Origin: Clostridia bacterium
GTDB lineage: Bacteria; Bacillota; Clostridia; Christensenellales; DTU072
Assembly: GCA_017533505.1 (NCBI GenBank)
Contig: JAFXIB010000089.1
Location: forward strand, 2,009-66,008
Length of the DNA stretch: 64,000 bases
Direction: 5' to 3'
Shown piece after piece: positions 27,001-50,394 of this stretch. A model generated the notes under the pieces. The model ran no database searches. It saw nothing but the letters and a program-made list of their open reading frames with translations, and was not told the DNA's origin. Numbering within the stretch: position 1 is the stretch's first letter; every line of letters starts with the position of its first letter. Position numbers and translations under genes: made by a program.

Positions 27001-29322
27001 GCTTATACCAGAAAGGTTTGTTACCTTTACACTAATAGTGTAAATACGGATATACCTTGCAAAGATCTTGAATGAATCATTCATCAACAAATTGATTTGG
27101 TTGTTGTTGGGGTTGAAGCTATATGTAATCTTTGTATCGGTATCATTACCATTTAGGTCTTGAACTGTTTCTGTCTTGAAGTAATAGGTTGTTTCGCCCT
27201 TTGTTACAGATAGGTTGTTGTCTAACTCGGTTGCGTTTGCAACAAGAGCTTGCTTACCACCTTGACCATTTTCGGTGATATACCAACCTGCGAACTCATA
27301 ACCTTCAATAGTTGCTGGGAGCAAGGTTTGAACGGTATAGTAGTTGAAGTTACCACTTGAACGAGAAATGCTACCAATCTTTGGTTCTACATCGCCCTTT
27401 CCGTCAAGGAAGATATGCTCATCGTTGAGAGCTGTGGACTTAACAAGCTCAAGACTTTCTACCTTTTGGAACAAAGGTCTAATTCTTATAGCATAGATAT
27501 CAAATGAGCTTTCATATTCGCCCAAGCTATCATACTTGGATGCACTATAAGTGAATCCATCAGCATTGTCCTCTGGTACAACACCAGTTGAACCAATGTA
27601 TGCAGGATATGTTGTTGTGAACAAGCATGATACTGGGAATGTGAAGCTTGGCTTGGTTACAAGGTTGGTTTGTGAGTTTGCATCAACATATGGAATATTG
27701 AGCCAACCGAAGTTGCCATCACCAAGGTATGCATAGTATTGCCATGCAATGAATGCAAAGTTGTCATCGCCACCACTTGCACCTGCCCAGTTGAGGCTGA
27801 TGGTGTTATCTCTCCAAGTGTTGTATGGTGAGTTAGCAGAGTTCTTGTCAATATTATTTATAGTATTAATCTTACCAAGCATTTGGAAGTTAATATCGGT
27901 ATTATAGGAAACATCTGCGCCAAGTTTGGGTTCCACACTCATTGAAGAATTGAAATATTGAGTGATGTTTTCATCATACATAGTTGATGTTACGGTAATG
28001 GGTCCTGGGTTGAGATAATCGCCATTATCCAAGTACTCGTTTTCAACTACAATGTTGTATACAGGGATAAACCTTGCAACAACTTCGATGGTATAAGTTG
28101 TTGTTGAAACACCACTCGATACAGTAGTATTTTCAACGATGTTTACACCATTAGATAGGTTGTCAAGGTCGTTGATTACAAAGCTACCTTCATATGTAGA
28201 TGGGTAGTTTTGGATGAGTTGCGTATAGGAATTTATGCCATTGATAAAGTATCCTACAAATTGATAGTATCTTGAGAAGCTCTTGAACTCTGCTTCACTC
28301 AAACTGAAACCGATGTTGTAGTACAAGTTATCATTGTAGTCATACTTCTTGTTAGAAACGGTTGAGTCAGCACTGGAGTTAGATGTAAAGTTGATGTTGT
28401 AACCAGGTGTTGGGTCGTCAATAGATGTTCTTTCGTCAGTTACGAAGCTAATCTTTCTGGTTACTTCAACTTGCTTCCAGAATCTAATCTTGAAGATTGA
28501 GTTTTCGTTCAAGCCATTTAGAGTTACAACAACCCTGCTGATTCTATCGTTGCTGATGTTGGTTGAAGCATTGCCAGTCTCATTGTAATAAGTGATTTGT
28601 ACTCTGCCGTCAGCAGTTGCAACCAATGGGGTATAGGTTGAACTGAATTGCTTGAAGCCTTGCTCATCAGGTGTAGCAAGTGGGAGAAGTTCCATAACAC
28701 TATCAAACCTATAACTTGACTTTGGTGTTATGGTAATTGTCAAGGTTTGGTTAGGTGCCATTGTTACGGAGTTTTCGGTTAGACTTGCAACAGATGTTCC
28801 GTTGATAGCATATCTTACGGTACCACCTTCACCACTTACATTTGAGCCAACGGTTTCCATTGCAAAGCTTGCGTAGATTACATTGTTAAAGTAAGCATAT
28901 ACTAATCTATCTTCCAAGGTATCTACGCCTGTAGAATAGCTATCTTCCATTTGTGCAATCTTGCCACCATTATAAGTGATAACTGAATAGCTATATCCCC
29001 TTGTTGAGTTTACAGAGATACTATCGTTACCAGTAAGCATCAAGTTTGCACCACTCAATACTCTATATGTATAGCTTGCATCCTCTACTCCGTCTATATC
29101 AGTTATTACCTCTCTCATAGCTGAAACATTGGGTAGGATTACACCTTCGCCCTTCGTTGAGTAAGTAACAGTAGCTGTTAGACTTGCATATTGACGATAC
29201 TTCATTCTTGATGGATCATTTGTTGCAAATGAACCTTCAGTGTACTTGTATTCTGGGTGAACTTGAACGGTAATCTCGTAAGTGCGGAAGAATACTGCTC
29301 TAAACTCACGATTTGAAGTCAT
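24049..29322 (-). CDS. Giant surface protein, distal 1,757 codons (B-type repeats then GLUG-motif region); in frame with 29386..36624 across a single TAA
   Basis: Y.F.GW-type repeats (YEFAGWYITENGQG, FVGYFINGINSY). Then NPFKIATVDHLRNIDSLY followed by many GLUG turns (FVGGLVGLLAG, GAGGIVGSIG, GAGGIAGTIQ, IGGVVGSIG, GAGGIAGFNNGTISG, VGGLVGVNFGTLENG, YGGMVGYN, IGGIVGYNEGAVSG). There is no RBS before the called ATG at 29322. Confidence 0.8.
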   Translation of the reverse strand: MTSNREFRAVFFRTYEITVQVHPEYKYTEGSFATNDPSRMKYRQYASLTATVTYSTKGEGVILPNVSAMREVITDIDGVEDASYTYRVLSGANLMLTGNDSISVNSTRGYSYSVITYNGGKIAQMEDSYSTGVDTLEDRLVYAYFNNVIYASFAMETVGSNVSGEGGTVRYAINGTSVASLTENSVTMAPNQTLTITITPKSSYRFDSVMELLPLATPDEQGFKQFSSTYTPLVATADGRVQITYYNETGNASTNISNDRISRVVVTLNGLNENSIFKIRFWKQVEVTRKISFVTDERTSIDDPTPGYNINFTSNSSADSTVSNKKYDYNDNLYYNIGFSLSEAEFKSFSRYYQFVGYFINGINSYTQLIQNYPSTYEGSFVINDLDNLSNGVNIVENTTVSSGVSTTTYTIEVVARFIPVYNIVVENEYLDNGDYLNPGPITVTSTMYDENITQYFNSSMSVEPKLGADVSYNTDINFQMLGKINTINNIDKNSANSPYNTWRDNTISLNWAGASGGDDNFAFIAWQYYAYLGDGNFGWLNIPYVDANSQTNLVTKPSFTFPVSCLFTTTYPAYIGSTGVVPEDNADGFTYSASKYDSLGEYESSFDIYAIRIRPLFQKVESLELVKSTALNDEHIFLDGKGDVEPKIGSISRSSGNFNYYTVQTLLPATIEGYEFAGWYITENGQGGKQALVANATELDNNLSVTKGETTYYFKTETVQDLNGNDTDTKITYSFNPNNNQINLLMNDSFKIFARYIRIYTISVKVTNLSGISPVLTDSMPTLKYYKQVGDTWVEQGELSGERMINITDARVGTKLMFKLVTNYSGNINDSTNFNPLYDRFAGITSVDEENRNVWDQNGSLDYQQSTIPDALKNFDANNSSTYEAYNDAVEAMEIVITANAQKTINVNFESFGTLKLHNVYVGSSIKLPNALGEVLYENDPNSVEVSADILGNDAYYVKDDAIGDAHATSGDNSGDGIIQINNIPINTEFSFDGEESGDYATRLIDTANVLESDYISIGVNFNGSSITKKVQNIAYYSTATWDEYVWVEGTLQTQSKSGTGMYDYPFADGGVVGSAGDGSATNPFKIATVDHLRNIDSLYKGNNGTLVYGQNGSEVLRVHFIQIADINLNETNNALEEPLCGAFTASNNVTYLNGFNGVYDGNSKTLYNLYLELSNSSIMENVGIFAKIYRGGVVKNLNIGRSYVYTSATNVGVLAGQVFGGTVQNVHTVATGAENIIRTAYGQNFVGGLVGLLAGETDAEGLITNSSVTDYNVTATIGGSYLGVGSDYTGGAGGIVGSIGNYGRVSGGNGTYTTSGVTVMSGTALGAEGIGAGGIAGTIQANSGSTEQVAIENATVINGGLDASSNKAAIGGVVGSIGANRRINNVVYRITSAMGIRSNSTAGFVAPNSTADQGNFMMHGAGGIAGFNNGTISGATVSSSSTFRLSITGSMVGGLVGVNFGTLENGSVAARIFTSRQNINASLEGGTYGGMVGYNTSTGKISGGSISGSQGATNDYNSTTAAYEVVTAANEAYVPTSGANSGMHAVLSADTATLYIGGIVGYNEGAVSGVANNSKLMVNRRASDESRNDTYIGAITGSSTNENISASGSAIIKYFNYIWVDQAEDVSQTQWAYIGNAKGNGNGGNSTCSVTATAEYCGGGTIYNQASIEAGFTWGFEGTGYLSGSASVYFYSVSGTASGICPDWNVSGTIKSGKEAGAVYSPDCEVYGGSISTLWKETANYTGYLRYITVSMYSA

Positions 29323-29385
29323 TGTATAACGGAGAATTTGTCCGTTAGATTGTAGTGTAATACCATTTACACCATCTACAACATA

Positions 29386-32300
29386 TTACCATACGCCGTC
29401 AATCTTTTCTTGATATCCTTGGAATGAATACTTGTTGATAACAGCAGAGTCAATTCTTACGGTGTAGGTTGCGTCTGTATTGTACTCGTGCTCAATGGAG
29501 CTCTTGTAGTCGCTGAATGATGCTGAAAGTGTAAATGCATCTCTGTTATTAATCTTTGGAGTATCAGTAGCTGTTACAGTCCTACCATAGTTGGATGAGC
29601 CAACACCTTCAACAAGATACATGCTTGCCTTTGACTCATGCATATCCTTTTTGGTTTCGTAGTAAATACGGATGGTATTCTTGTTGTTGGAGTGGAAGTC
29701 CATCATCTTTAGAATATCAGCATCAAGCGTTACAGCAAGGTTTTCGCCCTTTTGTGAGAATGTGTTGTGATCACGCAAGCCCTCTCTCAAGAAGCTATAT
29801 GTAGTCTTGCTGGTATCGTTATAAGGCAAGTTGTAGAAGGTGACTGATGTGATTGAGTAGCCTTCCTTCAAGTCATGATTGATGAGAGTTGGTGTAACTG
29901 CATCAAAGATGATTTCGTTATTGTTGAGTGATACACCGAGAGTTGAATCTTGATATAGGTTAGTGATTTGTAAATTATTGATGAAGAATACTACACTATA
30001 TCTTTGCTTTTCGTATGTAGGCAAGATGGTAATCTTATCAGCGCCATTTACAAGTTCGTCGTTGATAATTAGTGATACCTTTTCCTGACTTGCGTTGATG
30101 GTGTCGGTAGTATATGTATAATGCATATCTGAACGACCACTAACAGTTGTAGGAATGGTTCTACCATTGATATCAAGGCTTGCGAGATAGTAGCCATCAT
30201 CAGAAATCATATTTACGCCAAATGCTTCATGGTGGCTTACAAGGGTGTTACCAGTTGAGCCATATCTACCACCTGGGCGATGGATATATTCAATGGTATA
30301 TGTCTTGATTACATACTCAACATGAACTCTTATATTACCAGTCATGCTGGGGATTGTGTAGGTACGAGCGCCACTACCATCATCTGCATCAAGGCCACTT
30401 TCGGATAGTACAAGGTTGGATTCTACACCACCATCATTATCCATGATGATGGATACTGCCGAAATCCTATAACCAACAGGAGCTGTTAGTGAAATGGTAA
30501 CCTTATCAGCAAATACTGCAGGGCTGATGTGTACTGTCTTATTTGGATCTGATGGATCAACTACTTCAATAAATACTCTACCATCTGCATCAATGCTTCT
30601 TGGAGTATCGGTTGTAAAGTAGTTTTCTTCTTGTTTTAGAAGTGAACCCTTGTTGAGAACAACACCACTTATTGCATGTACAAGAGTGTCGCTGTTGGTA
30701 ATTTCGGGATATTCCTTATTATAATCGCCACTAAACTCGATATCGTATGCCTTGTTTGCAAGGATTACAAAGATGCTATAATCACTTGTGATGTGCTCCA
30801 AGGTGTGGGTACCACCAAACTCAAGGGTGGAAGTCATATCGCTGTTTTGTCCGTTAAGCAATACCTTATCCATCACATAACCACGACTGATTACAAGTCT
30901 TACGGTTACACTTTCATTCCACTCTACAAGTGAAGTGCTAATGGTAGCAACACCACCTTCAAAGGTGTTAACTTCGATAACATATGTATGGATAGTAAAG
31001 TTGATTTCACATAGAGTATGTGAAACGATAACTTCTCTCTCACGCATCATGGCATCTTCATTAACAATCGCATATGCTTGCTTGTTGATGAAGAAGTTGC
31101 TAATTCTGTAACCTTCATCAGCATTTGGTACTGCCACAAAGATAATCTCTGTACCGTAAGTTACCACGATACCATTTTCGCTTGCCCAAACAACACCACC
31201 TTCAACAGCGCGTTTTGCATAGGTTTTATTTTCGTCTGAAGCGATGTCGCCACTCTCAATGATTTCAATGCCAGGAGCCCATAGGAGAGTGTCTGTTGTA
31301 TCATAAATATAGTACTTACCACCAACGCTTGCGCTCATTTCTACTTCGTAAGTATCAATGGTGTAGGTTACTTCAACATCCATTGCACCAGTTAAAGTAC
31401 CAATAAAGTTGTTGTTTCTTACAGATGTAAGTCTATCTTCGCCATTTACTGTAAATGCTGTACGACTATATCCTACGCCAGGCTTTACTGAAATAGAGTA
31501 GTTGAGACCATACTCATACATGCCGTCAACAACAACGACTGGTTGTTGAGCATAAGGATTGGTAAATGTTGCAATGATGTCGCCTTCACATTCCCATGTT
31601 GAGCCTTGATCGTCAATGGTCATTGTGCCAACATAAGCAAACATTCTTCTTCTAAACTCAACATTTACTGCTTGGATGTCGCTGGAAATGCCATATAGGA
31701 TATATGATCCACCCCTATCATCCAAAGTGGTGATGTTGTTGCTAATCAATTTGCCATCATCATTGTAATATTGGATTTCGAATCTTGCGATGTAGTAACC
31801 TCTGCCAGTTCTGGGAGTTACAACAAACTTAACATTGTTACCATGAGAGAAGCCTTGATATAGTCCGTTTGCATCGCTTTGATATCCGGTGATTGATACA
31901 ACACCATAGGTGTTGCTGTCAACATCGATGGTATTGAAGTTGGGGCTTTGGTTGGATACATTAACTTGGATTTGATACTCATTGATTGCATAAACAACTC
32001 TCAAAGAGATATTGCCTGTTACAACGCCAAGGTCATAGTAGATTTCTGTTAGGTCGTTGGCAGATACATTTTCTACCTTCCAGCCATTGTCCACAACACC
32101 ATTTACGCGTAGCTCTTGGATGTGATATCCCTTTTGAGCACTCATCTTGATGGAAACATGGTCACCTTCGCCAAGTTTTACATTCTTGGCTTGGTCATAC
32201 ATGCTACCTTCCTTTCTTACCAAGGTTTGACCACCAAGAGATTCGTTGATAGTGATGGAGTATACCATTGGAGAGAATGTTACATCCAATGTAGTATCGT

Positions 32301-35300
32301 GAGAGATGTGGATTTGCAATACACCCAAAGTATATTCGCCAGTAACTATTGGGGTACCGATTAGTGTTTGAGTGGAGATTTCTTCGCCATTCAAAACAAT
32401 CTTGCTAATATAGTAGCCACCAAATGCGCTGAGCTCAACTTCCTTGGTTTCGCCATAGTGTACACTGACAACACCCGTGTCGCCTACTCCACCGATAGTA
32501 CCATTGTCGCTATATGTATATGAAAGTTCATATTGAATAGGAGCAAAGCTTGCTGTTATTGTAATTGCGCCAGTAACATAGCTTGCTGGCATGGTGTAGT
32601 CAATCTTGCCACCATTCATATATCCATCGTATTCAGAGCCATTCAAAGGTTGGATGGGCTTGCTTTGTCCATCGATACTGATGATGAATGTTGATGCATA
32701 GTAGCCTTCAACCGGAGTGAGCCTAATGTTGAATGAAGAACCAGCTTCTACCATTGATTTATCGGTTGCTACAACACCATTTTCTACACCACTTACTATG
32801 GTAATAGGATATTTTGTTTCGCTAAATACAGCATAAGCATGGCTATCTGCATTTGCGATATAGCTATACTTGTTACCATCAACTGCAACGCTCTTACCAT
32901 CAACTACCAAGGCTTCAAGAACATGACCTGCGCTTGGGATTGCTTCCAAAACAATCTTCATACCACTTGAAATAGTAGCACCGGTTGCAATGCTTTCGCC
33001 ATTGCCGTCATAAGCAGAAAGTGTACCATTACCACTTGCAGTGTAAGTAAGAGTCTTTGGACTGCTTTCGGTGGTCTTCTTATCAAATGTTACATAAATA
33101 TCAACTGATGTGTGAATATCATAGATATTCAAGTATGTTGTTGATGATGCTTGTGAGCTACCAGCAATAAGAGCATAGAAGCCATTAGTTTCAGATTGGT
33201 TATATTCGCCAGAGAGTGGCAAATAGTAGTAAGATTCTCTTTGGTCCTTGTTTACAACAACAATCTTATCAATGCTCAAAGAGTATCCACTTGCAAGAGT
33301 GATGTTTGCTGTTAGGTCGTTGCCATAAGCAATAGATGATTGATAATGTGCATTGTTGCTGGATTCAGTATTGTTGATGGTTGCGTTGTTGATTACAACC
33401 CTATTATTTGCCTTGTTGATAAAGTGGATATCATAATCAAGTGCAATTGATGCACAAATGATTTCTACTGAATAGCTTGCATCAATGTTTGCAAGGGTTA
33501 CAACATGATTCTTTGCAGAATAGTTGATGATTTCGTTGTGGCTGTCGCCCTTGTTGGATGTAACCAAAATGCTGTTGATGTAATATCCTTCATTTGCCAC
33601 TACTTCAAATTCAGCAGTTTGAGCATGTTCAACGCCGTCAAATGTATAGCCTTCGCCACCAATGATATTGACTGTCTTATCATTATAAGTTACTTGTGAT
33701 GTGCCATCATTATCAACAAAACGAACATAATAAGTTGTTCTCTTGAAGATAAACTTGATGTCGTAGTCTTGCATGGTGTTATTTACGGCATACTCACGAG
33801 CAGTTTGAACATCGTCAAATGTTAGTTCTTCGCCGTTGACCAATACAGAGTCTACATAGTATCCACTTGATGTAACTGCATTGACATGGAATGGTGCGCC
33901 ATATGATACAGTAAATGGAGTTGTTACAGAACCGATACCTTCATAAGAAGTTGTGATATTGTAGTAAAGTTCTTCAAATTCAACTTCAAAGACAACATTT
34001 TGCTCAATGCCATCAATTTGAATTTGCATTTTGGTAACTCTATAATCGTTGCCACCCTCAACTTCTTCGCCATTGACAAGTTTGCTTTGAACAGTGTATC
34101 CCTTTGCAGAGATATATGGGTCGATTATAGTACCATTTGCAGTAATTCTCTTTACATAGTATCCTTCTTCTGCTTCTGCGATGAAGGAAGGTGCGTCACC
34201 CTTGTTGAAGTTTAGAATACTTGCCTCGGAAACTACCGAACCCTTTTCACTAACTTCTGGAAGTGTTACGGCATATGTAAATTGTAGGTATTGAATTTCT
34301 ACCCTATTGTCGCTATTTACATCTTCAATGATAAGGTTGAAGTATACTGCTTCACTTGGTACAGTGATTTCTTCGCCATTGAGCTTGATTGCTGAAATAT
34401 AATATCCGTAGCTTGAGCTTGGGTCAATTGGAGTTTCCCTTTCAGCTCTGGTTGCAATTTCGATACTTGCACCTGAACCATAGTTTACAAGGAAGCTGAT
34501 AGCTTTGTCGTTGCTGTTTTGACGGAAACTTTCGTCCTTACCCAAGATATTGTAAGCAATTTCGCCACTAACAGCACCGTTTGAGCCATTGGTGATAGCA
34601 ACTTCGTACTCGGTGAGCTTGAAGGTTGCTGTTACTTCGTGGTCGGTTTCGATGATGCTGGAAATTGTCAAATCGTAGTAACCTTGCTCTCCTGCGAGAT
34701 TGGTGCCTGTGTTGGTAACGCCATTTACATTTACAGCACTCAATGAGTATCCTGCGCTTGGACGGATACGGAGCAAGTAGTCTTCAGTAACAGGCATTGC
34801 TACCTTGCCAGAAATAGCCTTTTCGGTATAAACGCCATAAACGCTATCATAAACAAGAGCATTGATAGAACCTGAACCTTGAATGTTGATTGTCAAAGTC
34901 TTGGTGTTGACTTCAAATACAGGAACAACGAAGATTGCTGGATAACTTGCTGTTACATTGCCCAAGCCATCCTTAACTTCAACGATAGTCATGTAGTTTT
35001 CAAGCTTGAATGCTTTGTCAATTACGGTTGAAGTGGGTAGTCTGTCAGCATCGGCAAGATACCAGCCCTTGAATGTATAGTTTTCCTTGGTGGGTACAAC
35101 TTCTGGGAATGTGCCACTGATTGCACCAGCAAGAGTGTCTTGATAGTAAGAAGTGACAAGCTTTCCATTATAAGTGGTTTCGAAAATAGAAGTTGAGTCG
35201 ATAAATGAAAGGTCTTCGTTTTCGCCCTTTAGGAATACAGCTGCAAAAATTTGCTTTTCCCAGTAAGCAATTAGCTCTGTGGGTTGGCTGAATGTTGTTT

Positions 35301-36624
35301 GATTGGTTACAAGTACAGGAGTGCCGTCCTCTTTGACTTCGCCACCCTTGATGTACCAGCCCTTGAAGTCATAACCAAGGGTGGAGAGATATGTAAGGTC
35401 TTCTACATCAAACTTTTCGCCAATTGGGGTGTCGTAATCAATCAAGAAGCTCTCATGAGCCTTATTGTTCATGGAAGTAAAGGAAATTTCACTCTCAAGA
35501 TATACAAAATGAGCTTTGACCAAAATTTCTTCCACCTCGGAATCTGGTGTAAAGCTCAAAACAAATTCTTCACTCGTGCCTGTGCGCGTAGAAATAAACT
35601 CAATAGAGTGATTGATGCCTACATGGATAAGACGACCATCGCTCATAACAGGGTCAAGAGATATCCAAGTTTTGGTATTTACATCATAAACGGACCAGCC
35701 AATAAACTTTCTGTCTGCATTTGCAGTAACACGCACGGTTGCAAGGTCATCAAACTCATAGAATGCGCGTGCATCGGATGTGCCAAGTGGACGACCACTC
35801 CTATCAGTGGTGTACTCGATGTTAAAGTCAGCTGCGTACTTTTCGTAGATAGGATAGATGTTGGTATCCTTTGTGATGTGGGTGTAATCGGTGTCCCAAC
35901 CTACAAAGCGATATCCATATAGTTCCATATTGTGTTCATCTGCGCGTGGTACACGCATAGGAGCTTCGTTATAAGCAACGATTTCTTCTCTTGCAGTGGT
36001 GCCATCTGGATAGTAGAATACTACTGTGTAACGAAGTTTTTCGAACACAGCGATAAGACGCATACTCTTGGAGACTTGAGTATCAAGACGGCTTGCGTTG
36101 AGATTGCCATCAGACCAACCAGCAAAATAATATCCTTCATCTGGGATAGCTTCAACACGGGTTGCATCTGCCCCTGCTGTTATGCTTTGGATGGTGTCGC
36201 CATCAATTCTACCACCGGTAGAAGCAATATACTCTACATTGAGTTCGGTTGGAACAACATTGAATGAAATGGTTTGCTTAAAGCCACCGTAATCAAGCAC
36301 AACTCCATCAACAACACCTTCAGTACTTATGTCGAGACCGGTAACAACAAGTTCAGAAAGCGCAACTTGATTAGTAGTACCATCAGAATACTTGACGGTA
36401 ACAAACACCTGTGACAAATCGGCGCCAACAGAAATCAAGCCTTCGTCGGGCGCAACAATAGCCACCACTTCTGGTGCTTCGTAATCAGTTACATCTGCGT
36501 AATTAGGCAGGACAATACCCGCAGTGACAATAGCTGCTACTGCAACAATTGCAATGGCAATCATAGTGATGCCGAACATTCCATTGATGGAAAAACGCTT
36601 TCCAGTTACTCTTAATTTAGCCAT
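29386..36624 (-). CDS. Giant N-anchored surface protein, proximal 2,412 codons (more than 20 Listeria-Bacteroides/InlB-B-like repeat modules)
   Basis: N-terminal signal-anchor MFGITMIAIAIVAVAAIVTAGIVL and RBS ggaga. Repeats include YYFAGWSDGN, YRFVGWDTDY, YDFKGWYIKGG, YTFKGWYLADA. Many 90-100-aa modules carry (E/S)GYY(I/V)xS(I/V)xVNGE-type strands. There is no LPXTG and no choline-binding or SLH motif. Confidence 0.85.
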   Translation of the reverse strand: MAKLRVTGKRFSINGMFGITMIAIAIVAVAAIVTAGIVLPNYADVTDYEAPEVVAIVAPDEGLISVGADLSQVFVTVKYSDGTTNQVALSELVVTGLDISTEGVVDGVVLDYGGFKQTISFNVVPTELNVEYIASTGGRIDGDTIQSITAGADATRVEAIPDEGYYFAGWSDGNLNASRLDTQVSKSMRLIAVFEKLRYTVVFYYPDGTTAREEIVAYNEAPMRVPRADEHNMELYGYRFVGWDTDYTHITKDTNIYPIYEKYAADFNIEYTTDRSGRPLGTSDARAFYEFDDLATVRVTANADRKFIGWSVYDVNTKTWISLDPVMSDGRLIHVGINHSIEFISTRTGTSEEFVLSFTPDSEVEEILVKAHFVYLESEISFTSMNNKAHESFLIDYDTPIGEKFDVEDLTYLSTLGYDFKGWYIKGGEVKEDGTPVLVTNQTTFSQPTELIAYWEKQIFAAVFLKGENEDLSFIDSTSIFETTYNGKLVTSYYQDTLAGAISGTFPEVVPTKENYTFKGWYLADADRLPTSTVIDKAFKLENYMTIVEVKDGLGNVTASYPAIFVVPVFEVNTKTLTINIQGSGSINALVYDSVYGVYTEKAISGKVAMPVTEDYLLRIRPSAGYSLSAVNVNGVTNTGTNLAGEQGYYDLTISSIIETDHEVTATFKLTEYEVAITNGSNGAVSGEIAYNILGKDESFRQNSNDKAISFLVNYGSGASIEIATRAERETPIDPSSSYGYYISAIKLNGEEITVPSEAVYFNLIIEDVNSDNRVEIQYLQFTYAVTLPEVSEKGSVVSEASILNFNKGDAPSFIAEAEEGYYVKRITANGTIIDPYISAKGYTVQSKLVNGEEVEGGNDYRVTKMQIQIDGIEQNVVFEVEFEELYYNITTSYEGIGSVTTPFTVSYGAPFHVNAVTSSGYYVDSVLVNGEELTFDDVQTAREYAVNNTMQDYDIKFIFKRTTYYVRFVDNDGTSQVTYNDKTVNIIGGEGYTFDGVEHAQTAEFEVVANEGYYINSILVTSNKGDSHNEIINYSAKNHVVTLANIDASYSVEIICASIALDYDIHFINKANNRVVINNATINNTESSNNAHYQSSIAYGNDLTANITLASGYSLSIDKIVVVNKDQRESYYYLPLSGEYNQSETNGFYALIAGSSQASSTTYLNIYDIHTSVDIYVTFDKKTTESSPKTLTYTASGNGTLSAYDGNGESIATGATISSGMKIVLEAIPSAGHVLEALVVDGKSVAVDGNKYSYIANADSHAYAVFSETKYPITIVSGVENGVVATDKSMVEAGSSFNIRLTPVEGYYASTFIISIDGQSKPIQPLNGSEYDGYMNGGKIDYTMPASYVTGAITITASFAPIQYELSYTYSDNGTIGGVGDTGVVSVHYGETKEVELSAFGGYYISKIVLNGEEISTQTLIGTPIVTGEYTLGVLQIHISHDTTLDVTFSPMVYSITINESLGGQTLVRKEGSMYDQAKNVKLGEGDHVSIKMSAQKGYHIQELRVNGVVDNGWKVENVSANDLTEIYYDLGVVTGNISLRVVYAINEYQIQVNVSNQSPNFNTIDVDSNTYGVVSITGYQSDANGLYQGFSHGNNVKFVVTPRTGRGYYIARFEIQYYNDDGKLISNNITTLDDRGGSYILYGISSDIQAVNVEFRRRMFAYVGTMTIDDQGSTWECEGDIIATFTNPYAQQPVVVVDGMYEYGLNYSISVKPGVGYSRTAFTVNGEDRLTSVRNNNFIGTLTGAMDVEVTYTIDTYEVEMSASVGGKYYIYDTTDTLLWAPGIEIIESGDIASDENKTYAKRAVEGGVVWASENGIVVTYGTEIIFVAVPNADEGYRISNFFINKQAYAIVNEDAMMREREVIVSHTLCEINFTIHTYVIEVNTFEGGVATISTSLVEWNESVTVRLVISRGYVMDKVLLNGQNSDMTSTLEFGGTHTLEHITSDYSIFVILANKAYDIEFSGDYNKEYPEITNSDTLVHAISGVVLNKGSLLKQEENYFTTDTPRSIDADGRVFIEVVDPSDPNKTVHISPAVFADKVTISLTAPVGYRISAVSIIMDNDGGVESNLVLSESGLDADDGSGARTYTIPSMTGNIRVHVEYVIKTYTIEYIHRPGGRYGSTGNTLVSHHEAFGVNMISDDGYYLASLDINGRTIPTTVSGRSDMHYTYTTDTINASQEKVSLIINDELVNGADKITILPTYEKQRYSVVFFINNLQITNLYQDSTLGVSLNNNEIIFDAVTPTLINHDLKEGYSITSVTFYNLPYNDTSKTTYSFLREGLRDHNTFSQKGENLAVTLDADILKMMDFHSNNKNTIRIYYETKKDMHESKASMYLVEGVGSSNYGRTVTATDTPKINNRDAFTLSASFSDYKSSIEHEYNTDATYTVRIDSAVINKYSFQGYQEKIDGVW

Positions 36625-36660: not shown

Positions 36661-36689
36661 ATTATATATAATAAAAGGCGCGCACGCAA
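36661..36689 (-). promoter_or_regulatory. Candidate promoter of the giant surface-protein gene
   Basis: Minus strand: TTGCGT (36689-36684), 17-nt spacer gcgcgccttttattata, TATAAT (36666-36661), 36 nt upstream of the ATG at 36624. Confidence 0.5.
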
Positions 36690-36761
36690 GTTGCGTACGC
36701 GTTATTTTACTAAAATTTTATCGTGCAGGTGTGTGCACGCAAGCGCATAAGCGTCAAAAAT

Positions 36762-38747
36762 CTACTTTTGGCGCTTATCTACCGTCTTTTGAGTGGGGCG
36801 CGCAATGCTGAATTTGCCACTTGGGATATCTTCGGTTATTGTTGAGCCACCAGCAATATAACAGTCATTCCCTATCTTCAATGGTGCAATAAGATTGGAG
36901 TTGCAACCGATAAACACTCTTTCTCCCACTTCTGTTCTTCGCTTTAATTTTCCGTTATAATTTGCAAACACCGTGCCACATCCTACATTTGTATGCGCGC
37001 CCACATCTGCATCGCCCACATATGTAAGATGCGCTGCTTTTACCCCGTCCCCAATCACCGAATTTTTGACTTCTACATAGTCGCCTATCCTACACCCCTT
37101 GCCAATATTTGCGCCCTTGCGTAGTGTTGCAAAAGGTCCTATTGTGGAGTGTGCTCCTATGTTTGCATTAAGACAATAGCTTGAACGAATGTCTACACCA
37201 TCGCCAATTGTAGTATCGGTTATATCGCAAAATGAATAGATGTTGGCATTTTCCCCTATAATCGTCTTGCCAGCAATATAATTGAATGGATAAATTATAC
37301 TGCCTTTTCCAATTTCCACCCCTTTTGCAATAAAAGTAGTACTTGGCTCTACAATCGTTACGCCATTAGTGGTGTAGTTTTGATAATCTTCTTTTGCATT
37401 TATTGGATTTTGGGATACTTTATTATTGGTTTTAGTATTCTTTAATTCCATATTTTGGACTATTTCTGTGCTTATAAATTCTTTAATTTTGATAGCACTT
37501 TCCTTGGCTTTTTCATAGGTTTCCCCCTCCACCATAATGCGTATTTTAGGCTCGGTGCCAGATGGTCTTGCGACGACTCTAACGGCGTTTTCTTTTTCAT
37601 ACAACTCAAGAAACTCTTTGATTTTTGTGGAACCTTGGAGTAGCTCTTTTTGTTCAACACTTGCAGTAATATCACTTTCCACACAAGGGTATTTGACCAT
37701 ATCAAGCAACCTATTTATGCCAACTTCTCTGTCTATCAAGGCAACAAACAAAGCTGTAAGCAGTCCATCTCCTGTTTGTGAATAGTGCCTTAAAATGATA
37801 TGTCCACTATCCTCGCCACCAATCTCCGAACCACTTTCAAGCATTTTTTGATATACATATTTGTCGCCAACATCTGCCCTAACAAATGATATCCCCCTAT
37901 CTTCCAACGACTTTTCCAGCCCCATATTGCTCATGAGCGTACCAACAACGCATCTTGTTGCCAATCTTCCCTTCAGCTCAAAGTATCGTGTAATTAGATA
38001 CAAAATATCATCTCCAGTCAGCATTTTGCCATCTTTGATGGCAATTACTCTGTCCCCGTCACCATCAAAAGCAAAACCAAGGGAGCAGTTTTCTTTTAAG
38101 CAATACTCTTGTAAAGGTGTTAGATATGTTGCGCCACATTTTACATTAATGCACTCTCCATTGTCGTCTGCATTTATATCCTTTAACCTTATACCCAGCC
38201 TTTCAAACACTTTGGACACAATGCTAAAAGTTGCTCCGTGACAAAGGTCTGTAGCCAACTCCATACCAATCAAGCTATTTCCAAAAATACCTTCAAGATA
38301 TGTAATATAGTTTTCCACTTCTCCATTATAAACAATTCCTTGCGCCCCAAAATTTGGCTTAAAATCTTGGTTTAGTGCACTCTCAATCTCTTTCTCCAAC
38401 TGCGTAGAAATCTTGGCTCCTTGCCCCGAAAACAGCTTCAAACCATTGTATTCTGGTGGGTTATGACTTGCTGAAATCATTATGCCCAATTGACAACCAC
38501 TGCTTTTTGTTAAAAAAGCAAGTGTAGGAGTCGGCATCACACCACCCCTAAAAACGCTAATTCCATTTGACAGCAAATGGGCAGTAAGCATATTTTCTAT
38601 TTCGCCACCACTAACTCTTGTGTCTCTACCTATATAAACACTAATTTTGCCAAAAACCTTGCAAATTGCTTTGGAAAACCTACAAATAAAGGGCTCATCA
38701 AACAATGTGCCCTTTGCTCTTATACCATCTGTGCCAAATTTAAGCAT
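36762..38747 (-). CDS. Fusion protein: phosphoglucosamine-mutase-like phosphohexomutase (N) + GlmU-type left-handed beta-helix acetyltransferase domain (C)
   Basis: N-terminal part: FGTDGIRA, phosphoserine loop SASHNPPEYNGLK, metal loop FAFDGDGDR, sugar loop GGEDSGH, phosphate loop RPSGTEPKIR. After a linker of about 40 aa: IGPFATLRKGANIG, GDYVEVKNSVIGDGVKAAHLTYVGDADVG, NVGCGTVFANYNGKLKRRTEVG, VFIGCNSNLIAPLKIG, AGGSTIT. This is collinear with the E. coli GlmU C-terminal domain as I recall it. No nucleotidyltransferase domain is present. Confidence 0.85.
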   Translation of the reverse strand: MLKFGTDGIRAKGTLFDEPFICRFSKAICKVFGKISVYIGRDTRVSGGEIENMLTAHLLSNGISVFRGGVMPTPTLAFLTKSSGCQLGIMISASHNPPEYNGLKLFSGQGAKISTQLEKEIESALNQDFKPNFGAQGIVYNGEVENYITYLEGIFGNSLIGMELATDLCHGATFSIVSKVFERLGIRLKDINADDNGECINVKCGATYLTPLQEYCLKENCSLGFAFDGDGDRVIAIKDGKMLTGDDILYLITRYFELKGRLATRCVVGTLMSNMGLEKSLEDRGISFVRADVGDKYVYQKMLESGSEIGGEDSGHIILRHYSQTGDGLLTALFVALIDREVGINRLLDMVKYPCVESDITASVEQKELLQGSTKIKEFLELYEKENAVRVVARPSGTEPKIRIMVEGETYEKAKESAIKIKEFISTEIVQNMELKNTKTNNKVSQNPINAKEDYQNYTTNGVTIVEPSTTFIAKGVEIGKGSIIYPFNYIAGKTIIGENANIYSFCDITDTTIGDGVDIRSSYCLNANIGAHSTIGPFATLRKGANIGKGCRIGDYVEVKNSVIGDGVKAAHLTYVGDADVGAHTNVGCGTVFANYNGKLKRRTEVGERVFIGCNSNLIAPLKIGNDCYIAGGSTITEDIPSGKFSIARPTQKTVDKRQK

Positions 38748-38794
38748 AAAATCTCCACGCGATATTATATGCCAAACTCAATATATGTGTGCAT

Positions 38795-38820: not shown

Positions 38821-39498
38821 TTAAAGTTGACTTATTACTTTTAGCAATGTACTTGAATTTATCTTACAAGCTGTTTCGGCAAGCTCATTATAGCTCAATT
38901 CTGCACCATCTTCGGCTGAATCGCTGATTACCTTTAATGCACCAAACTTTACGCCTAAAATATGGCAAACTTGGGCTACAGCGCCACACTCCATATCACA
39001 AGCTACTGCGCCAAAGGTATTTGCAATAGCCTTGGCTTTGTTTGAATCTGCAATAAAGGTATCCCCTGTTGCCACGATGCCAACAGAAGCGTTTTCAGCG
39101 CCATTTTTGATAGCTTCAACTATTTCCTTGTCCGCATCAAAATAAACCATATTTAGCCCACTGATAAGCCCTATGGGGTCGCCAAGTGCTGTTGTATCGC
39201 TGTCATGCTGACAAACTCTTGATACAGATAGTGCGCTGAGTGGCTTGAGTTTGCCAACACCCCCTGCTATACCTGTATTGATGACAACATCAACACCAAA
39301 CTTTTCCACCATAATGGTGGTGGTAAAGGCTGCGTTAACTTTGCCGATGCCTGCAAGAGCAAGAATAACTTCATTATCCCCCATTTTACCTATGGTAAAA
39401 GTTTTGCCCTTGTACTCAAGACTATAAGTGGATTGAAGCCCAGCGATAATATCGCGGGCTTCCTTATCCATTGCTACTAAAAGTCCAATTTTCCTCAT
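38821..39498 (-). CDS. mtnN: 5'-methylthioadenosine/S-adenosylhomocysteine nucleosidase
   Basis: MRKIGLLVAMDKEA, AGIGKVNAA, INTGIAGG, ATGDTFIAD, ACDMECGAVAQVC. These are the canonical Pfs/MtnN motifs. Confidence 0.9.
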   Translation of the reverse strand: MRKIGLLVAMDKEARDIIAGLQSTYSLEYKGKTFTIGKMGDNEVILALAGIGKVNAAFTTTIMVEKFGVDVVINTGIAGGVGKLKPLSALSVSRVCQHDSDTTALGDPIGLISGLNMVYFDADKEIVEAIKNGAENASVGIVATGDTFIADSNKAKAIANTFGAVACDMECGAVAQVCHILGVKFGALKVISDSAEDGAELSYNELAETACKINSSTLLKVISQL

Positions 39499-43083: not shown

Positions 43084-43112
43084 ATAGTACCCAATATGTA
43101 AGCGTTATTTCA

Positions 43113-48527: not shown

Positions 48528-49256
48528 ATGATCGTTCTCAAAAAGGCAAAAAACTATGAAGAAATGAGCAAAATGGCTTATTCAATCGTAAAAGATGTTG
48601 TTACTAACAATCCAAATGCAACCTTGGGTCTTGCTACTGGTAGCACCCCAATCGGTTTATATAAAGAAATGATAAAAGATTATCAAGCAGGAGTTGTCAG
48701 CTACAAAAATATGCTCTCCATTAACCTTGATGAATATGTAGGACTACCCGTTGAACACCCCGAAAGCTATCGTAGCTTTATGAACACCAACCTATTCAAT
48801 CACATTGACATCGACAAAGCAAACACAAATGTACCAAACGGTCTTGCTGACGATATCGAAAAAGCTTGCAAGGACTACTCTGCCTTTATCGCTTCCCACC
48901 CTATCGATGTACAAATTTTGGGTATCGGTGGCAATGGACACATCGCATTCAACGAGCCAGGCACTCCACTTGATGCTCCCACGCACCTTGTCGAGCTCAA
49001 GGAAAAAACTCGCCTTGACAATGCAAGATTTTTTGATGGCGACATCAACAAGGTTCCTACCCACGCAGTTACCATGGGACTCAAGGATATCATGAGTGCA
49101 AAAAAGATTGTTCTTCTTGCTTCAGGAAGCAACAAAGCTCAAGCAGTTTTTGATATGCTCAATGGCCCCATCAGCACTGATTGCCCAGCATCAGTTCTAC
49201 AATCTCACCCCGATGTAACAGTAATCTGCGACGAAGGCGCAAGTTCTCTTCTATAA
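48528..49256 (+). CDS. nagB: Glucosamine-6-phosphate deaminase
   Basis: GLATGSTP, NLDEYVGL, GIGGNGHIAFNEPG, SVLQSHPDV. RBS aaggaga lies upstream. Confidence 0.9.
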   Translation: MIVLKKAKNYEEMSKMAYSIVKDVVTNNPNATLGLATGSTPIGLYKEMIKDYQAGVVSYKNMLSINLDEYVGLPVEHPESYRSFMNTNLFNHIDIDKANTNVPNGLADDIEKACKDYSAFIASHPIDVQILGIGGNGHIAFNEPGTPLDAPTHLVELKEKTRLDNARFFDGDINKVPTHAVTMGLKDIMSAKKIVLLASGSNKAQAVFDMLNGPISTDCPASVLQSHPDVTVICDEGASSLL

Positions 49257-49351: not shown

Positions 49352-49359
49352 ATTCTTTG

Positions 49360-50394
49360 TTATTTTGTGATTGTAATCTTTTTTCTGTTGCGAGGACAAT
49401 CTACATTGATGCCCTTCGCTTCTCCGATATATGCACAATAAAGTTCGGTTGCAAGCGCATATACAAATGGAAGATTCATGCCCCTATATGATGGCATATG
49501 GAAAGCTTTATGCGCCATACGAGCAACTTCGGGGATATCGGTGAACGCAATCACTTCTGCACCAAGAAGAGATAGGCGTGTTGTCATCGCAATAAACTCA
49601 TCTCTGAACTCGGAGTCCGGAGCAAGAAGCACAATCTTGGTTCCTTCTTCTACAATAGAGATAGGACCATGCATAAATTGTGATGTGCTAAACACATTGG
49701 ATAGTGTATAGCAAGTTTCCATCATCTTAAGACTAAACTCACTGGTTACACTTTGCAAAATGCCACGACTCAAAACGATAAAGTTATTGAGGTCCTTGGT
49801 TTCTTCTGCAAAAGCCTTCAACTCATCTGCTTTATCATTGATGAAACCCTTTAGCATTGATGGGAGTTCCATAACATTCATTTTTGCTGTAACTGGACTC
49901 AATGCATTTGAGAGCATAAACATACTTACCATTTCGGCAAGATAGGTCTTTGTTGCAGCAACACTTCGCTCTTCGCCAGCATGAAGATCAATATGATAAT
50001 CAGCAATCTTTGCAAGCTCGCTGTCTGGGTTGTTGGTTACAGCAACGGTAAGTGCGCCGGTTTCCTTTGCAGAGCGCATAACCATAATAGTATCAGTTGA
50101 CATGCCACTTTGTGATATAGCAAGGAGCATACTATTGTGAAGATTTACCTTTGCGCCATATACAGTGGTAACAGATGGAGAAAGCTTTGATACAGCAATT
50201 TCGCCGATGGTTTCCACTATATACTTAAAATAGGTAGCTGCACTATCGCTGGTACCTCTTGCAACGGTTGCAATATTGGTGATGTTGCGTTCTTTGAATT
50301 CCTTGGCAATATCATTTATAACTTTCTTGTTGGCAGTTGCAACATTTCTTACAACTTCTGGTGCCGACAGGAATTCATCAAGCATTATAGACAT
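49360..50394 (-). CDS. SIS-domain sugar-phosphate isomerase/deaminase (GlmS C-terminal/AgaS-like, two SIS modules)
   Basis: 344 aa. First SIS: ATVARGTSDSAATYFKY ... LAISQSGMSTDT. Second: FIVLSRGILQSVTSEFSLKMMETCY. There is no glutaminase domain. Confidence 0.8.
   Translation of the reverse strand: MSIMLDEFLSAPEVVRNVATANKKVINDIAKEFKERNITNIATVARGTSDSAATYFKYIVETIGEIAVSKLSPSVTTVYGAKVNLHNSMLLAISQSGMSTDTIMVMRSAKETGALTVAVTNNPDSELAKIADYHIDLHAGEERSVAATKTYLAEMVSMFMLSNALSPVTAKMNVMELPSMLKGFINDKADELKAFAEETKDLNNFIVLSRGILQSVTSEFSLKMMETCYTLSNVFSTSQFMHGPISIVEEGTKIVLLAPDSEFRDEFIAMTTRLSLLGAEVIAFTDIPEVARMAHKAFHMPSYRGMNLPFVYALATELYCAYIGEAKGINVDCPRNRKKITITK

What the first reader, a model, noticed from the sequence alone, without database searches (positions are those of the whole stretch)
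36762..38747. Gene fusion of a GlmM-like phosphohexomutase to only the acetyltransferase half of GlmU
Seen directly: a complete alpha-D-phosphohexomutase (SASHNP, DGDGDR, GEDSGH, RPSGTEP) is joined by a linker of about 40 aa to a left-handed beta-helix domain. That domain is collinear with the GlmU C-terminal acetyltransferase (IGPFATLR, HLTYVGDA, NYNGKLK..T.VG, VFIGCNS.LIAP). The GlmU N-terminal uridylyltransferase domain is absent.

Established pathway: GlcN-6-P is converted to GlcN-1-P by GlmM, then to GlcNAc-1-P by GlmU-C, then to UDP-GlcNAc by GlmU-N. The fusion would channel steps 1 and 2 and release GlcNAc-1-P, leaving uridylylation to a separate enzyme not in this window. I am not aware of this architecture being described, but I cannot search to confirm that. 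Its position directly upstream of the giant adhesin gene is notable.
Basis: partly seen in the sequence, partly recalled or inferred. Interest (0 to 1): 0.6.

Follow-up and report, generated by a model that had tools for sequence, protein, structure and literature searches.

The report
Fused GlmM–GlmU-acetyltransferase cell-wall precursor enzyme
This gene joins two consecutive enzymes of the bacterial pathway to UDP-GlcNAc (the cell-wall sugar precursor) into one protein and drops the usual third activity; it is real and conserved in a group of uncultured gut-type Clostridia, so these bacteria must finish the pathway with a different, still unidentified enzyme.

Summary
ORF 36762-38747 (-) encodes a 661-aa protein with three parts: a complete GlmM phosphoglucosamine mutase, a ~27-aa linker, and the complete GlmU C-terminal acetyltransferase. 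The uridylyltransferase domain is absent. All catalytic motifs are kept, and the AlphaFold2 model is confident (pLDDT 94). The same architecture occurs in 25 protein clusters from independent assemblies, so it is not an artefact. It is not unique: a reverse-order fusion, a trifunctional GlmM::full-GlmU fusion and unfused glmM/glmU-C gene pairs also exist. The window's locus is the syntenic counterpart of an unfused locus in related Clostridia, where GlmU's uridylyltransferase domain is shrunk to a ~100-aa stub or lost. Most likely function: GlcN-6-P to GlcN-1-P to GlcNAc-1-P, with uridylylation done by a separate enzyme. That partner is not in the window and I could not identify it. Candidates are NagU, class II GalT with GalU, and a stand-alone GlmU-N. 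I found no paper describing the fusion; public annotations call it "hypothetical protein" or "phosphoglucosamine mutase". Verdict: a new architectural variant of known enzymes, of moderate interest.

The parts
36762..38747 (-). Fusion gene glmM::glmU-C (661 aa plus stop codon)
   Evidence: Uninterrupted ORF. Pfam PGM_PMM_I-IV plus Hexapep. NCBIfam glmM and the C-terminal half of GlmU. 25 full-length ortholog clusters.
37446..38747 (-). GlmM phosphoglucosamine mutase module (residues 1-434, four domains). Phosphoserine S94, metal loop D228/D230/D232, sugar loop E312/S314/H316, phosphate loop R394/S396/T398.
   Evidence: TIGR01455 covered 1-441 of 442, E 6.6e-114. These residues are invariant in 23 fusions of both domain orders. 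Foldseek TM 0.83-0.89 to S. aureus, B. subtilis and B. anthracis GlmM. pLDDT mostly above 95.
37365..37445 (-). Interdomain linker (residues 435-461): a disordered stretch 436-448, then a short helix 455-460 that is a remnant of the GlmU helical arm
   Evidence: pLDDT below 50 at 436-448. Sequence is variable (majority fraction 0.34, against 0.59 and 0.74 in the two domains), but the SGTEP-to-GPF spacing is 136 aa in 17 of 25 clusters.
36765..37364 (-). GlmU-type left-handed beta-helix GlcN-1-P N-acetyltransferase module with C-terminal tail (residues 462-661). R543, E559, K561, H573, Y576, N587, N596, Y597, K602.
   Evidence: Ungapped alignment to solved GlmU structures at residues 246/257-445/456 (9dqf E 2e-55; 4aaw, 3st8). 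The listed residues equal S. pneumoniae GlmU numbering plus 211 and are invariant in 25 group A clusters.
38764..38793 (-). Promoter-like site (TGCACA-18-TATAAT) 17 nt upstream of the ATG
   Evidence: Consensus scan, 10 of 12 matches. The number of promoter-like sites found was not above the shuffled expectation, so this is weak evidence.
36679..36701 (-). Terminator-like hairpin (10-bp stem, 7 G-C pairs) with a T-rich tail, 61 nt after the stop codon
   Evidence: It suggests the fusion gene is transcribed separately from the giant gene downstream.
38821..39498 (-). Upstream neighbour: MTA/SAH nucleosidase (mtnN/pfs), a conserved syntenic neighbour of both fused and unfused versions
   Evidence: NF004079 scores 193.5 bits, above its cutoff of 169. 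The same neighbour is seen in L081, L084, L179, L094, L097, L182 and L088.
24049..36624 (-). Downstream neighbour: giant Flg_new-repeat surface-protein gene (about 4190 codons), interrupted here by one in-frame TAA at 29386-29388
   Evidence: Orthologs have a single ORF of 4076-4219 aa directly after the fusion gene or after the unfused glmU-C.
48528..49256 (+). NagB glucosamine-6-phosphate deaminase (acts on GlcN-6-P, the substrate of the mutase half); functionally related context, about 10 kb upstream
   Evidence: TIGR00502 scores 296 bits, above its cutoff of 236.9. Its position is conserved in L081, L084 and L179.
49360..50394 (-). GlmS isomerase-domain-only protein resembling NagB-II (two SIS domains, no glutaminase domain)
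   Evidence: Matches GlmS model positions 254-596 (E 3.9e-53). The NagB-II model NF046059 scores 203 bits, below its cutoff of 430.

Best explanation
The gene encodes a bifunctional enzyme that carries out the second and third steps of bacterial UDP-GlcNAc synthesis in one polypeptide. The N-terminal GlmM module isomerises GlcN-6-P to GlcN-1-P through its phosphoserine (S94). The C-terminal GlmU-type left-handed beta-helix module acetylates GlcN-1-P with acetyl-CoA, using H573 as the base, and releases GlcNAc-1-P. The uridylyltransferase domain of GlmU is absent, so a separate enzyme encoded outside this window must convert GlcNAc-1-P to UDP-GlcNAc. The fusion arose within a clade of uncultured Clostridia in which glmM and a uridylyltransferase-less glmU-C are tightly coupled adjacent genes. 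The window's locus is the orthologous locus, with the two genes joined. What is shown: the architecture, conserved catalytic residues, the fold, conservation across assemblies, synteny with the unfused pair, and the existence of other fusions of the same two activities. What is inferred: the enzymatic activities, the benefit of the fusion (stoichiometry, or proximity for the GlcN-1-P intermediate), a mixed oligomer built from GlmM dimers and LbH trimers, and the identity of the partner enzyme.
For: Domains and motifs. GlmM is by far the best mutase model (381 bits, against 116 bits or less for PMM/PGM models). The acetyltransferase aligns without gaps to solved GlmU structures, with all substrate-binding and catalytic residues kept. 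These residues are invariant in 25 ortholog clusters. AF2 gives pLDDT 94.3 with two confident modules and a disordered linker. Foldseek matches GlmM at TM 0.83-0.89 and S. aureus GlmU. The architecture is conserved down to 45% identity in independent assemblies. The two activities were fused more than once: a reverse-order LbH-GlmM group, a GlmM::full-GlmU protein followed directly by glmS, and a separate P0167/P0169 lineage. Unfused precursor arrangement: glmM and glmU-C are separated by 11 bp or overlap by 4-8 bp, with extended synteny to the window (ABC transporter, Big_2, ~311-318-aa protein, mtnN..., giant gene). The uridylyltransferase domain decays stepwise in relatives: intact loop, then a corrupted loop, then a ~100-aa mini-domain, then none. 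Experimental precedent for the module: E. coli GlmM plus the GlmU acetyltransferase domain alone restores GlcNAc synthesis in a bacterium that has a separate uridyltransferase (PMC4358021). Many bacteria have only GlmU-C together with an alternative uridyltransferase, NagU (bioRxiv 10.64898/2026.06.23.733835).
Against: No activity was measured. The glmM equivalog score (381 bits) is below NCBI's trusted cutoff (447.55). S404 of S. pneumoniae GlmU is Cys615 here, although S. aureus GlmU (9dqf) has the same Cys. The partner uridylyltransferase was not found in the window, in any fusion-bearing locus, or by contig-fingerprint matching. I could not test whether the same genome also has canonical glmM and glmU. 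The NJ trees supporting independent origins are rough and have no bootstrap support.
Confidence: 0.8

Rival explanations
1. Accessory paralog. The enzyme has the predicted activities, but it is a second, dedicated supply line of GlcNAc-1-P/UDP-GlcNAc for surface glycans or for glycosylation of the giant adhesin. Canonical housekeeping glmM and full-length glmU would exist elsewhere in the genome.
For: Relatives sit next to UDP-GlcNAc-consuming genes: a PglF/PseB-like 4,6-dehydratase lies directly upstream of glmM in the unfused loci. Group B fusions lie inside or beside polysaccharide gene clusters (Wzy, DegT, Bac_transf, GT2). Adjacency to the giant surface-protein gene is conserved.
Against: The unfused glmM genes of this clade are the closest stand-alone GlmMs to the window's mutase half. 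No second GlmM or full-length GlmU from the 1.56-Mb and 2.39-Mb contigs appears among the listed hits; this is weak evidence because only the top 120 hits are shown. The fusion gene has its own promoter-like and terminator-like signals. The window has lost the PglF-like gene.
Confidence: 0.2
2. Different chemistry. The mutase acts on another hexosamine phosphate (for example GlcNAc-6-P to GlcNAc-1-P, or GalN phosphates) in a salvage or catabolic HexNAc route like the bifidobacterial GNB/LNB pathway, and the LbH acetylates a different amine.
For: In relatives L096/L097, a NahK homolog (E 8e-77 to PDB 4wh1/4ocj) and GalE directly follow glmU-C, with GalK and class II GalT nearby. Phosphohexomutases can be promiscuous (general knowledge).
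Against: Every GlcN-1-P-binding and catalytic residue of GlmU is conserved. GlmM is the best-scoring mutase family by more than 250 bits. NahK, GalE and GalT are absent from the window. An acetyltransferase makes sense only in the biosynthetic direction.
Confidence: 0.07
3. Artefact: two adjacent genes joined by an assembly or sequencing error (a lost stop codon or a frameshift), as the unfused relatives might suggest.
For: Unfused glmM/glmU-C pairs separated by 11 bp or overlapping by 4-8 bp exist in related genomes, so a single indel could in principle join them.
Against: 25 clusters at 90% identity from NCBI, ENA and Logan assemblies, 45-99% identical to the window protein, all carry the fusion with nearly constant domain spacing. 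The window protein lacks the ~100-aa N-terminal mini-domain of the unfused GlmU-C, so it is not a simple read-through.
Confidence: 0.01

Closest known systems
Canonical bacterial pathway: separate GlmM plus bifunctional GlmU (E. coli, B. subtilis, S. pneumoniae)
   Same: The same two catalytic modules, motifs and folds. The mutase is 35-37% identical to Firmicute GlmM structures with TM 0.83-0.89. The LbH aligns without gaps to GlmU residues ~246-456.
   Different: The two modules are covalently joined. The GlmU pyrophosphorylase/uridylyltransferase domain is missing entirely. The gene is not in a cdaA-cdaR-glmM or glmU-prs context.
C-terminal-only (truncated) GlmU working with the eukaryote-like uridyltransferase NagU (Fong et al., bioRxiv 2026, 10.64898/2026.06.23.733835)
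   Same: An acetyltransferase-only GlmU, implying that uridylylation is outsourced. The preprint reports NagU sporadically in Clostridia.
   Different: The preprint does not mention any fusion to GlmM (the words 'fusion' and 'fused' occur zero times). A NagU gene could not be linked to the fusion-bearing genomes.
Engineered pair: E. coli GlmM plus GlmU del78 (acetyltransferase only) complementing Capnocytophaga canimorsus (Renzi et al. 2015, PMC4358021)
   Same: Shows experimentally that GlmM plus GlmU-C is a sufficient module when the cell has its own GlcNAc-1-P uridyltransferase.
   Different: Two separate, artificially truncated proteins, not a natural single polypeptide.
Unfused glmM / glmU-C-like (~330 aa) gene pairs of related uncultured Clostridia/Bacillota (e.g. 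FZPS01000068.1, PBDC3_scaffold00055)
   Same: Closest relatives of both halves (43-44% and 48-56% identity). The same locus and neighbours.
   Different: Two genes. GlmU-C keeps a ~100-aa cut-down pyrophosphorylase mini-domain and a long helical arm. A PglF-like dehydratase gene precedes glmM.
Other fusions found here: LbH-GlmM (group B), GlmM::full-length GlmU (P0163), NagU::phosphohexomutase (L133)
   Same: Covalent coupling of consecutive or nearby steps of UDP-GlcNAc synthesis.
   Different: Opposite domain order; retention of the uridylyltransferase domain; or a different pair of steps (mutase plus UAP-type uridylyltransferase).

Membership tests
GlmM (phosphoglucosamine mutase, alpha-D-phosphohexomutase superfamily) | Four-domain PGM_PMM_I-IV architecture | tested here: met
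   All four Pfam domains are above their cutoffs. The glmM HMM is covered 1-441 of 442. Foldseek TM 0.83-0.89 to GlmM structures.
GlmM (phosphoglucosamine mutase, alpha-D-phosphohexomutase superfamily) | Catalytic loops: phosphoserine (SASHNP), metal-binding DxDxDR, sugar-binding GExSGH, phosphate-binding RxSGTEP | tested here: met
   S94, D228/D230/D232/R233, E312/S314/H316 and R394/S396/T398 are present and invariant in 23 fusions.
GlmM (phosphoglucosamine mutase, alpha-D-phosphohexomutase superfamily) | Score at or above the curated equivalog cutoff of TIGR01455 | tested here: not met
   381 bits against a cutoff of 447.55. It is still the best model by more than 120 bits over archaeal GlmM and more than 260 bits over PMM/PGM. 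This indicates a divergent GlmM rather than a different family.
GlmM (phosphoglucosamine mutase, alpha-D-phosphohexomutase superfamily) | GlcN-6-P to GlcN-1-P activity | not testable with these tools
   Needs an enzyme assay.
Bifunctional GlmU (TIGR01173) | N-terminal pyrophosphorylase (uridylyltransferase) domain with the LxxGxGTxM nucleotide-binding loop | tested here: not met
   No NTP_transferase Pfam hit. GlmU HMMs match only from position ~224-241 onward. The protein is therefore not a bifunctional GlmU.
Bifunctional GlmU (TIGR01173) | C-terminal LbH acetyltransferase with the catalytic His and GlcN-1-P/acetyl-CoA-binding residues and the C-terminal tail | tested here: met
   Ungapped alignment to 9dqf, 4aaw and 3st8. 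R543, E559, K561, H573, Y576, N587, N596, Y597 and K602 are conserved. S404 is replaced by C615, as in S. aureus GlmU.
Bifunctional GlmU (TIGR01173) | Trimeric LbH assembly forming inter-subunit active sites | not testable with these tools
   Only a monomer model was made. Needs SEC-MALS, cryo-EM or a multimer prediction.
GlmU-C-only plus NagU alternative pathway (Fong et al. 2026) | NagU (UDPGP/UAP1-type, PF01704) encoded in the same genome | tested here: inconclusive
   None in the window or in the fusion loci. None of the 80 metagenomic NagU loci has glmU-C or a fusion nearby. No contig-length match among the top 120 of 7686 NagU-type proteins.
GNB/LNB-type HexNAc-1-P route (NahK, class II GalT, GalE) | NahK, class II GalT and GalE genes associated with the locus | tested here: not met
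   Present beside the unfused pair in L096/L097 but absent from the window and from all fusion-bearing loci.

The most novel reading that the evidence does not exclude
These Clostridia may have no pyrophosphorylase-type GlcNAc-1-P uridylyltransferase at all (no GlmU-N, no NagU). They would make the essential cell-wall precursor UDP-GlcNAc by a Leloir-like uridylyl exchange. The fusion (or the glmM/glmU-C pair, or NahK by salvage) supplies GlcNAc-1-P. A class II GalT then swaps it with UDP-glucose made by a GalU/YngB-type enzyme. The leads are that NahK, GalE and class II GalT cluster with the unfused pair in relatives, that a GalU/YngB-like gene lies 5.6 kb from the most abundant reverse-order fusion, and that class II GalT is known to accept GlcNAc-1-P and UDP-GlcNAc (10.64898/2026.09.13.751320).
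Probability: 0.12. Interest if true: 0.75.

Novelty: new variant of a known kind. Interest (0 to 1): 0.5.

Why it matters
GlmU has long been treated as the universal, essential bifunctional last enzyme of bacterial UDP-GlcNAc synthesis and as an antibiotic target. A 2026 preprint showed that S. aureus mostly uses another uridyltransferase, and that many bacteria have only part of GlmU. This finding adds comparative evidence from an uncultured clade of Clostridia. There, GlmM plus the GlmU acetyltransferase behaves as one selectable unit: adjacent coupled genes, fused in either order, probably fused several times. Meanwhile the uridylyltransferase domain decays and disappears. This points to a whole lineage in which the final step of an essential pathway is carried out by an enzyme not yet identified, and it gives a simple, clonable protein with which to test that. 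It also matters for annotation: these proteins are currently labelled "hypothetical" or "phosphoglucosamine mutase", and the ~330-aa relatives are mislabelled as bifunctional GlmU, so pathway reconstructions for these gut organisms will be wrong.

Tried and rejected
(1) The genome-contig scan with the fusion alignment was swamped by ordinary glmM genes. Its one apparent fusion hit, L075, is a plain 450-aa archaeal GlmM.
(2) The cluster-member lookup gave no organism names beyond "Clostridia/Clostridiales bacterium".
(3) Partner hunt. No NTP_transferase, UDPGP or GalT gene lies in the window or within 10 kb of the window-type fusions. The one exception among the reverse-order fusions is the GalU-type gene in L181 (item 4). 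A NagU probe recalled from memory was validated: 99% identity to metagenomic S. aureus contigs and UAP1 structures at E 1e-58 to 1e-63. The 80 NagU loci it recovered have no glmU-C or fusion nearby. A profile search for NagU-type proteins gave no contig-length match to the contigs carrying fusions or unfused pairs. That result is inconclusive because only 120 of 7686 hits are listed.
(4) The stand-alone NTP_transferase near the abundant reverse-order fusion is GalU/YngB-like, not GlmU-N-like.
(5) mtnN as a functional partner was rejected. It is a standard MTA/SAH nucleosidase, above its curated cutoff.
(6) Co-transcription with the giant gene is considered unlikely because of the hairpin and T-tract after the stop codon, but it is not excluded.
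(7) The ~100-aa N-terminus of the unfused relatives was considered as a possible new catalytic domain. It is better explained as a cut-down pyrophosphorylase domain without the nucleotide-binding loop.
Full report
**Observation.** The minus strand carries an uninterrupted ORF at 36762-38747 (661 aa, ATG start). Pfam detects all four phosphohexomutase domains (residues 2-417) followed by hexapeptide repeats. In NCBIfam, the phosphoglucosamine-mutase model TIGR01455 is covered almost end to end (model positions 1-441 of 442, residues 4-426, E 6.6e-114). The bifunctional GlmU models are matched only in their C-terminal halves, for example NF010934 positions 241-443 of 447 by residues 455-657 (E 1.9e-75). 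No nucleotidyltransferase domain is detected.

**Integrity of the two modules.**
- The GlmM loops are all present: phosphoserine S94 in SASHNP, metal loop DGDGDR 228-233, sugar loop GEDSGH 311-316 and phosphate loop RPSGTEP 394-400. They are invariant in an alignment of 23 fusion proteins.
- The C-terminal module aligns without a single gap to solved GlmU structures over the whole left-handed beta-helix and C-terminal tail. The best match is S. aureus GlmU 9dqf (E 2e-55), followed by M. tuberculosis and S. pneumoniae GlmU.
- By offset from S. pneumoniae numbering (+211), the residues I recall as the acetyltransferase active site are all conserved: R543, E559, K561, H573, Y576, N587, N596, Y597 and K602. 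This active-site list comes from my knowledge of the GlmU literature, where E. coli H363 equals S. pneumoniae H362. These residues are invariant in 25 ortholog clusters.
- The one departure is that S404 is replaced by C615. S. aureus GlmU has the same Cys.
- An AlphaFold2 model built on an 86-sequence alignment has mean pLDDT 94.3. The only low-confidence internal segment is 436-448.
- Foldseek matches the N-terminal module to GlmM of S. aureus, B. subtilis and B. anthracis (TM 0.83-0.89, E about 1e-37 to 1e-39) and the C-terminal module to S. aureus GlmU. No solved structure covers both halves.
- The linker is sequence-variable but length-conserved: the SGTEP-to-GPF spacing is 136 residues in 17 of 25 clusters.

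**Not an artefact, and not unique.**
- A search of 5.8 billion protein clusters returned 25 clusters with the window's architecture (648-665 aa, 45-99% identity) from NCBI MAGs, ENA and Logan assemblies.
- It also returned 14 clusters with the opposite order, helical arm plus LbH and then GlmM (655-693 aa).
- An exhaustive HMMER pass over 1.84 billion representatives at 50% identity found only about 14 representatives carrying both modules: 5 in the window's order, 8 in the reverse order, and one 886-aa protein (P0163).
- P0163 is GlmM plus a complete GlmU, including the NTP_transferase domain. It is followed directly by glmS.
- Rough NJ trees of each half place the main window-type group together with unfused genes, the reverse-order group in separate clades, and P0167/P0169 with the trifunctional protein. 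This suggests two or three independent fusions, but the trees have no support values.
- NCBI labels these proteins "hypothetical protein" or "phosphoglucosamine mutase".

**Origin.**
- The closest unfused relative of the acetyltransferase half (P0286, 248 aa, 56% identity) is encoded immediately after a stand-alone glmM and overlaps it by 8 bp.
- A search with P0286 uncovered a large family of GlmU-C-like proteins of about 325-340 aa in Clostridia, Bacillota and Christensenellaceae MAGs. They have no NTP_transferase Pfam hit. They match GlmU HMMs only from about model position 222-234 onward.
- These proteins lie directly after the very glmM genes that were the best stand-alone matches to the window's mutase half. 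The two genes are separated by 11 bp or overlap by 4 bp.
- Their extra N-terminal ~100 residues keep a "DTPL" motif but lack the GxGTR nucleotide loop. In an AF2 model (pLDDT 92.5) they fold as a compact alpha/beta mini-domain followed by a long arm helix. The model superposes on full-length GlmU at TM 0.80-0.83, against about 0.5 for LbH-only constructs. The mini-domain is therefore a cut-down pyrophosphorylase domain.
- Relatives with a corrupted loop (P0345, "AAALADRM") and with an intact loop (P0398) also exist. Together these look like stepwise decay of the uridylyltransferase domain.
- Synteny ties this to the window. L182/L183 read ABC transporter, ABC_tran_2, Big_2 protein, 318-aa protein, mtnN, PglF-like dehydratase, glmM, glmU-C. 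L094 reads mtnN, PglF-like, glmM, glmU-C, giant Flg_new protein. The window and its orthologs at 57-67% identity read ABC transporter, ABC_tran_2, two Big_2 proteins, 311-aa protein, mtnN, fusion, giant protein.
- The window's gene is thus the fused form of an ancestral coupled gene pair at the same locus, with the PglF-like gene lost.

**Mechanism.** The best-supported function is GlcN-6-P to GlcN-1-P (mutase half), followed by acetyl-CoA-dependent acetylation to GlcNAc-1-P (LbH half). GlcN-6-P can be interconverted with fructose-6-P by NagB (48528-49256, above its curated cutoff) and by a GlmS-isomerase-only protein resembling NagB-II (49360-50394), both about 10 kb upstream. It is experimentally established that GlmM plus the GlmU acetyltransferase domain is a self-sufficient module when a separate uridyltransferase exists: E. 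coli GlmM plus GlmU del78 rescues Capnocytophaga canimorsus, which has only a GlmU-N-type enzyme (PMC4358021). From established structures, GlmU's acetyltransferase sites form between subunits of an LbH trimer, and GlmM is a dimer. A fusion should therefore form a mixed higher-order assembly. This, and any channelling of GlcN-1-P, is inference. The gene appears to be its own transcription unit: a promoter-like site at 38764-38793 and terminator-like hairpins at 38800-38817 and 36679-36701. These are consensus matches only.

**The missing step.** No candidate uridylyltransferase is encoded in the window or within 10 kb of any window-type fusion. Several candidates remain.
- NagU. A 2026 preprint shows that S. 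aureus relies on a eukaryote-like uridyltransferase, NagU. It also reports that many bacteria with NagU, including sporadic Clostridia, have only the C-terminal part of GlmU. It does not mention fusion to GlmM. I validated a NagU probe and recovered 80 NagU-type loci from metagenomes, but none has glmU-C or a fusion nearby. A profile search gave no contig-length match to the relevant contigs, which is inconclusive.
- Class II GalT. In L096/L097 the unfused pair is followed by a NahK homolog (E 8e-77 to N-acetylhexosamine 1-kinase structures) and GalE, with GalK and a class II GalT 7-10 kb away. Class II GalT is reported to use GlcNAc-1-P and UDP-GlcNAc (10.64898/2026.09.13.751320).
- GalU/YngB. 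A GalU/YngB-like gene lies 5.6 kb from the most abundant reverse-order fusion.
- A stand-alone GlmU-N, or GlmR.

Which of these serves the window's organism is unresolved.

**Comparison and novelty.** Each half is a member of a well-known enzyme family. The protein is not a bifunctional GlmU, because the defining N-terminal domain was tested and is absent. Full-text searches found no description of a GlmM-GlmU-C fusion. I rate it a new architectural variant of a known kind. Its interest comes less from the fusion itself than from what surrounds it: a clade in which GlmU's uridylyltransferase is decaying or lost and the final step of an essential pathway is done by something else.

**Limits.**
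- No whole-genome access, so I could not test for canonical glmM or glmU, or for the partner enzyme, in the same genome.
- Taxonomy is known only as "Clostridia bacterium".
- The trees have no support values.
- Activities and oligomeric state are inferred.

Noticed in passing
window 29386-29388 (minus strand), within the giant gene 24049-36624: The giant Flg_new surface-protein gene (about 4190 codons) is split into 2412-aa and 1757-aa ORFs by a single in-frame TAA. The closest ortholog has CAA (Gln) at that codon, and others have AAA, TCC, TCG or GAA. The flanks are 80% identical to the closest ortholog, and all orthologs have one uninterrupted ORF. This is a recent nonsense mutation, a sequencing error, or a truncation variant.
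   Followed up: yes
P0026-P0039 and P0157-P0165; loci L085, L088, L181: Reverse-order fusions (helical arm plus GlmU-C LbH, then GlmM; 614-693 aa). One cluster has 2857 member sequences. Some lie inside or next to polysaccharide gene clusters (Wzy, DegT, Bac_transf, GT2, PglF-like).
   Followed up: partly
L178:142-2802 (P0163), then 2824-4605: An 886-aa trifunctional protein, GlmM plus complete GlmU (NTP_transferase plus LbH), is followed directly by glmS. The whole fructose-6-P to UDP-GlcNAc pathway therefore sits in two adjacent genes.
   Followed up: partly
L133/L134:9968-12928; also L129: A 986-aa fusion of a NagU/UAP-type UDPGP domain (residues 50-394) with a phosphohexomutase (PGM_PMM_I-III; the best model is archaeal-type GlmM) in contigs of 27-29% GC. 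This is a different fusion of UDP-GlcNAc pathway steps (mutase plus uridylyltransferase).
   Followed up: partly
L094, L096, L097, L182, L183 (proteins P0311, P0338, P0336 and about 100 further clusters): A large family of ~330-aa GlmU-like proteins has a conserved ~100-aa cut-down pyrophosphorylase mini-domain lacking the nucleotide loop. They are always encoded just after glmM. JGI annotates them as bifunctional GlmU, and NCBI as DapH/DapD/GlmU-related or hypothetical. That the stub is conserved suggests it still has a structural or regulatory role.
   Followed up: partly
L096:11004-13102 and L097:8239-10337: A NahK (N-acetylhexosamine 1-kinase) homolog and GalE directly follow the glmM/glmU-C pair, with GalK and class II GalT 7-10 kb away. 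The de novo and salvage routes to GlcNAc-1-P are therefore clustered.
   Followed up: partly
window 48528-50394: Two different GlcN-6-P/fructose-6-P interconverting enzymes are encoded side by side on opposite strands, in convergent orientation: a classical NagB and a GlmS-isomerase-only (NagB-II/GlmD-like) protein. No full-length GlmS is in the window.
   Followed up: partly
window 40507-45785 and 9237-11219, 51297-52559: There are several further large predicted surface proteins: two ~860-890-aa Big_2/beta-helix proteins, a GLUG/Flg_new protein and a BspA-type LRR protein. The region is rich in cell-surface genes.
   Followed up: no
L181:15847-18419: Near the most abundant reverse-order fusion lie a NagB-like gene and a 274-aa GalU/YngB-like UTP-sugar-1-P uridylyltransferase (TIGR01099 scores 245 bits, below its cutoff; PDB YngB E 3e-60).
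   Followed up: partly
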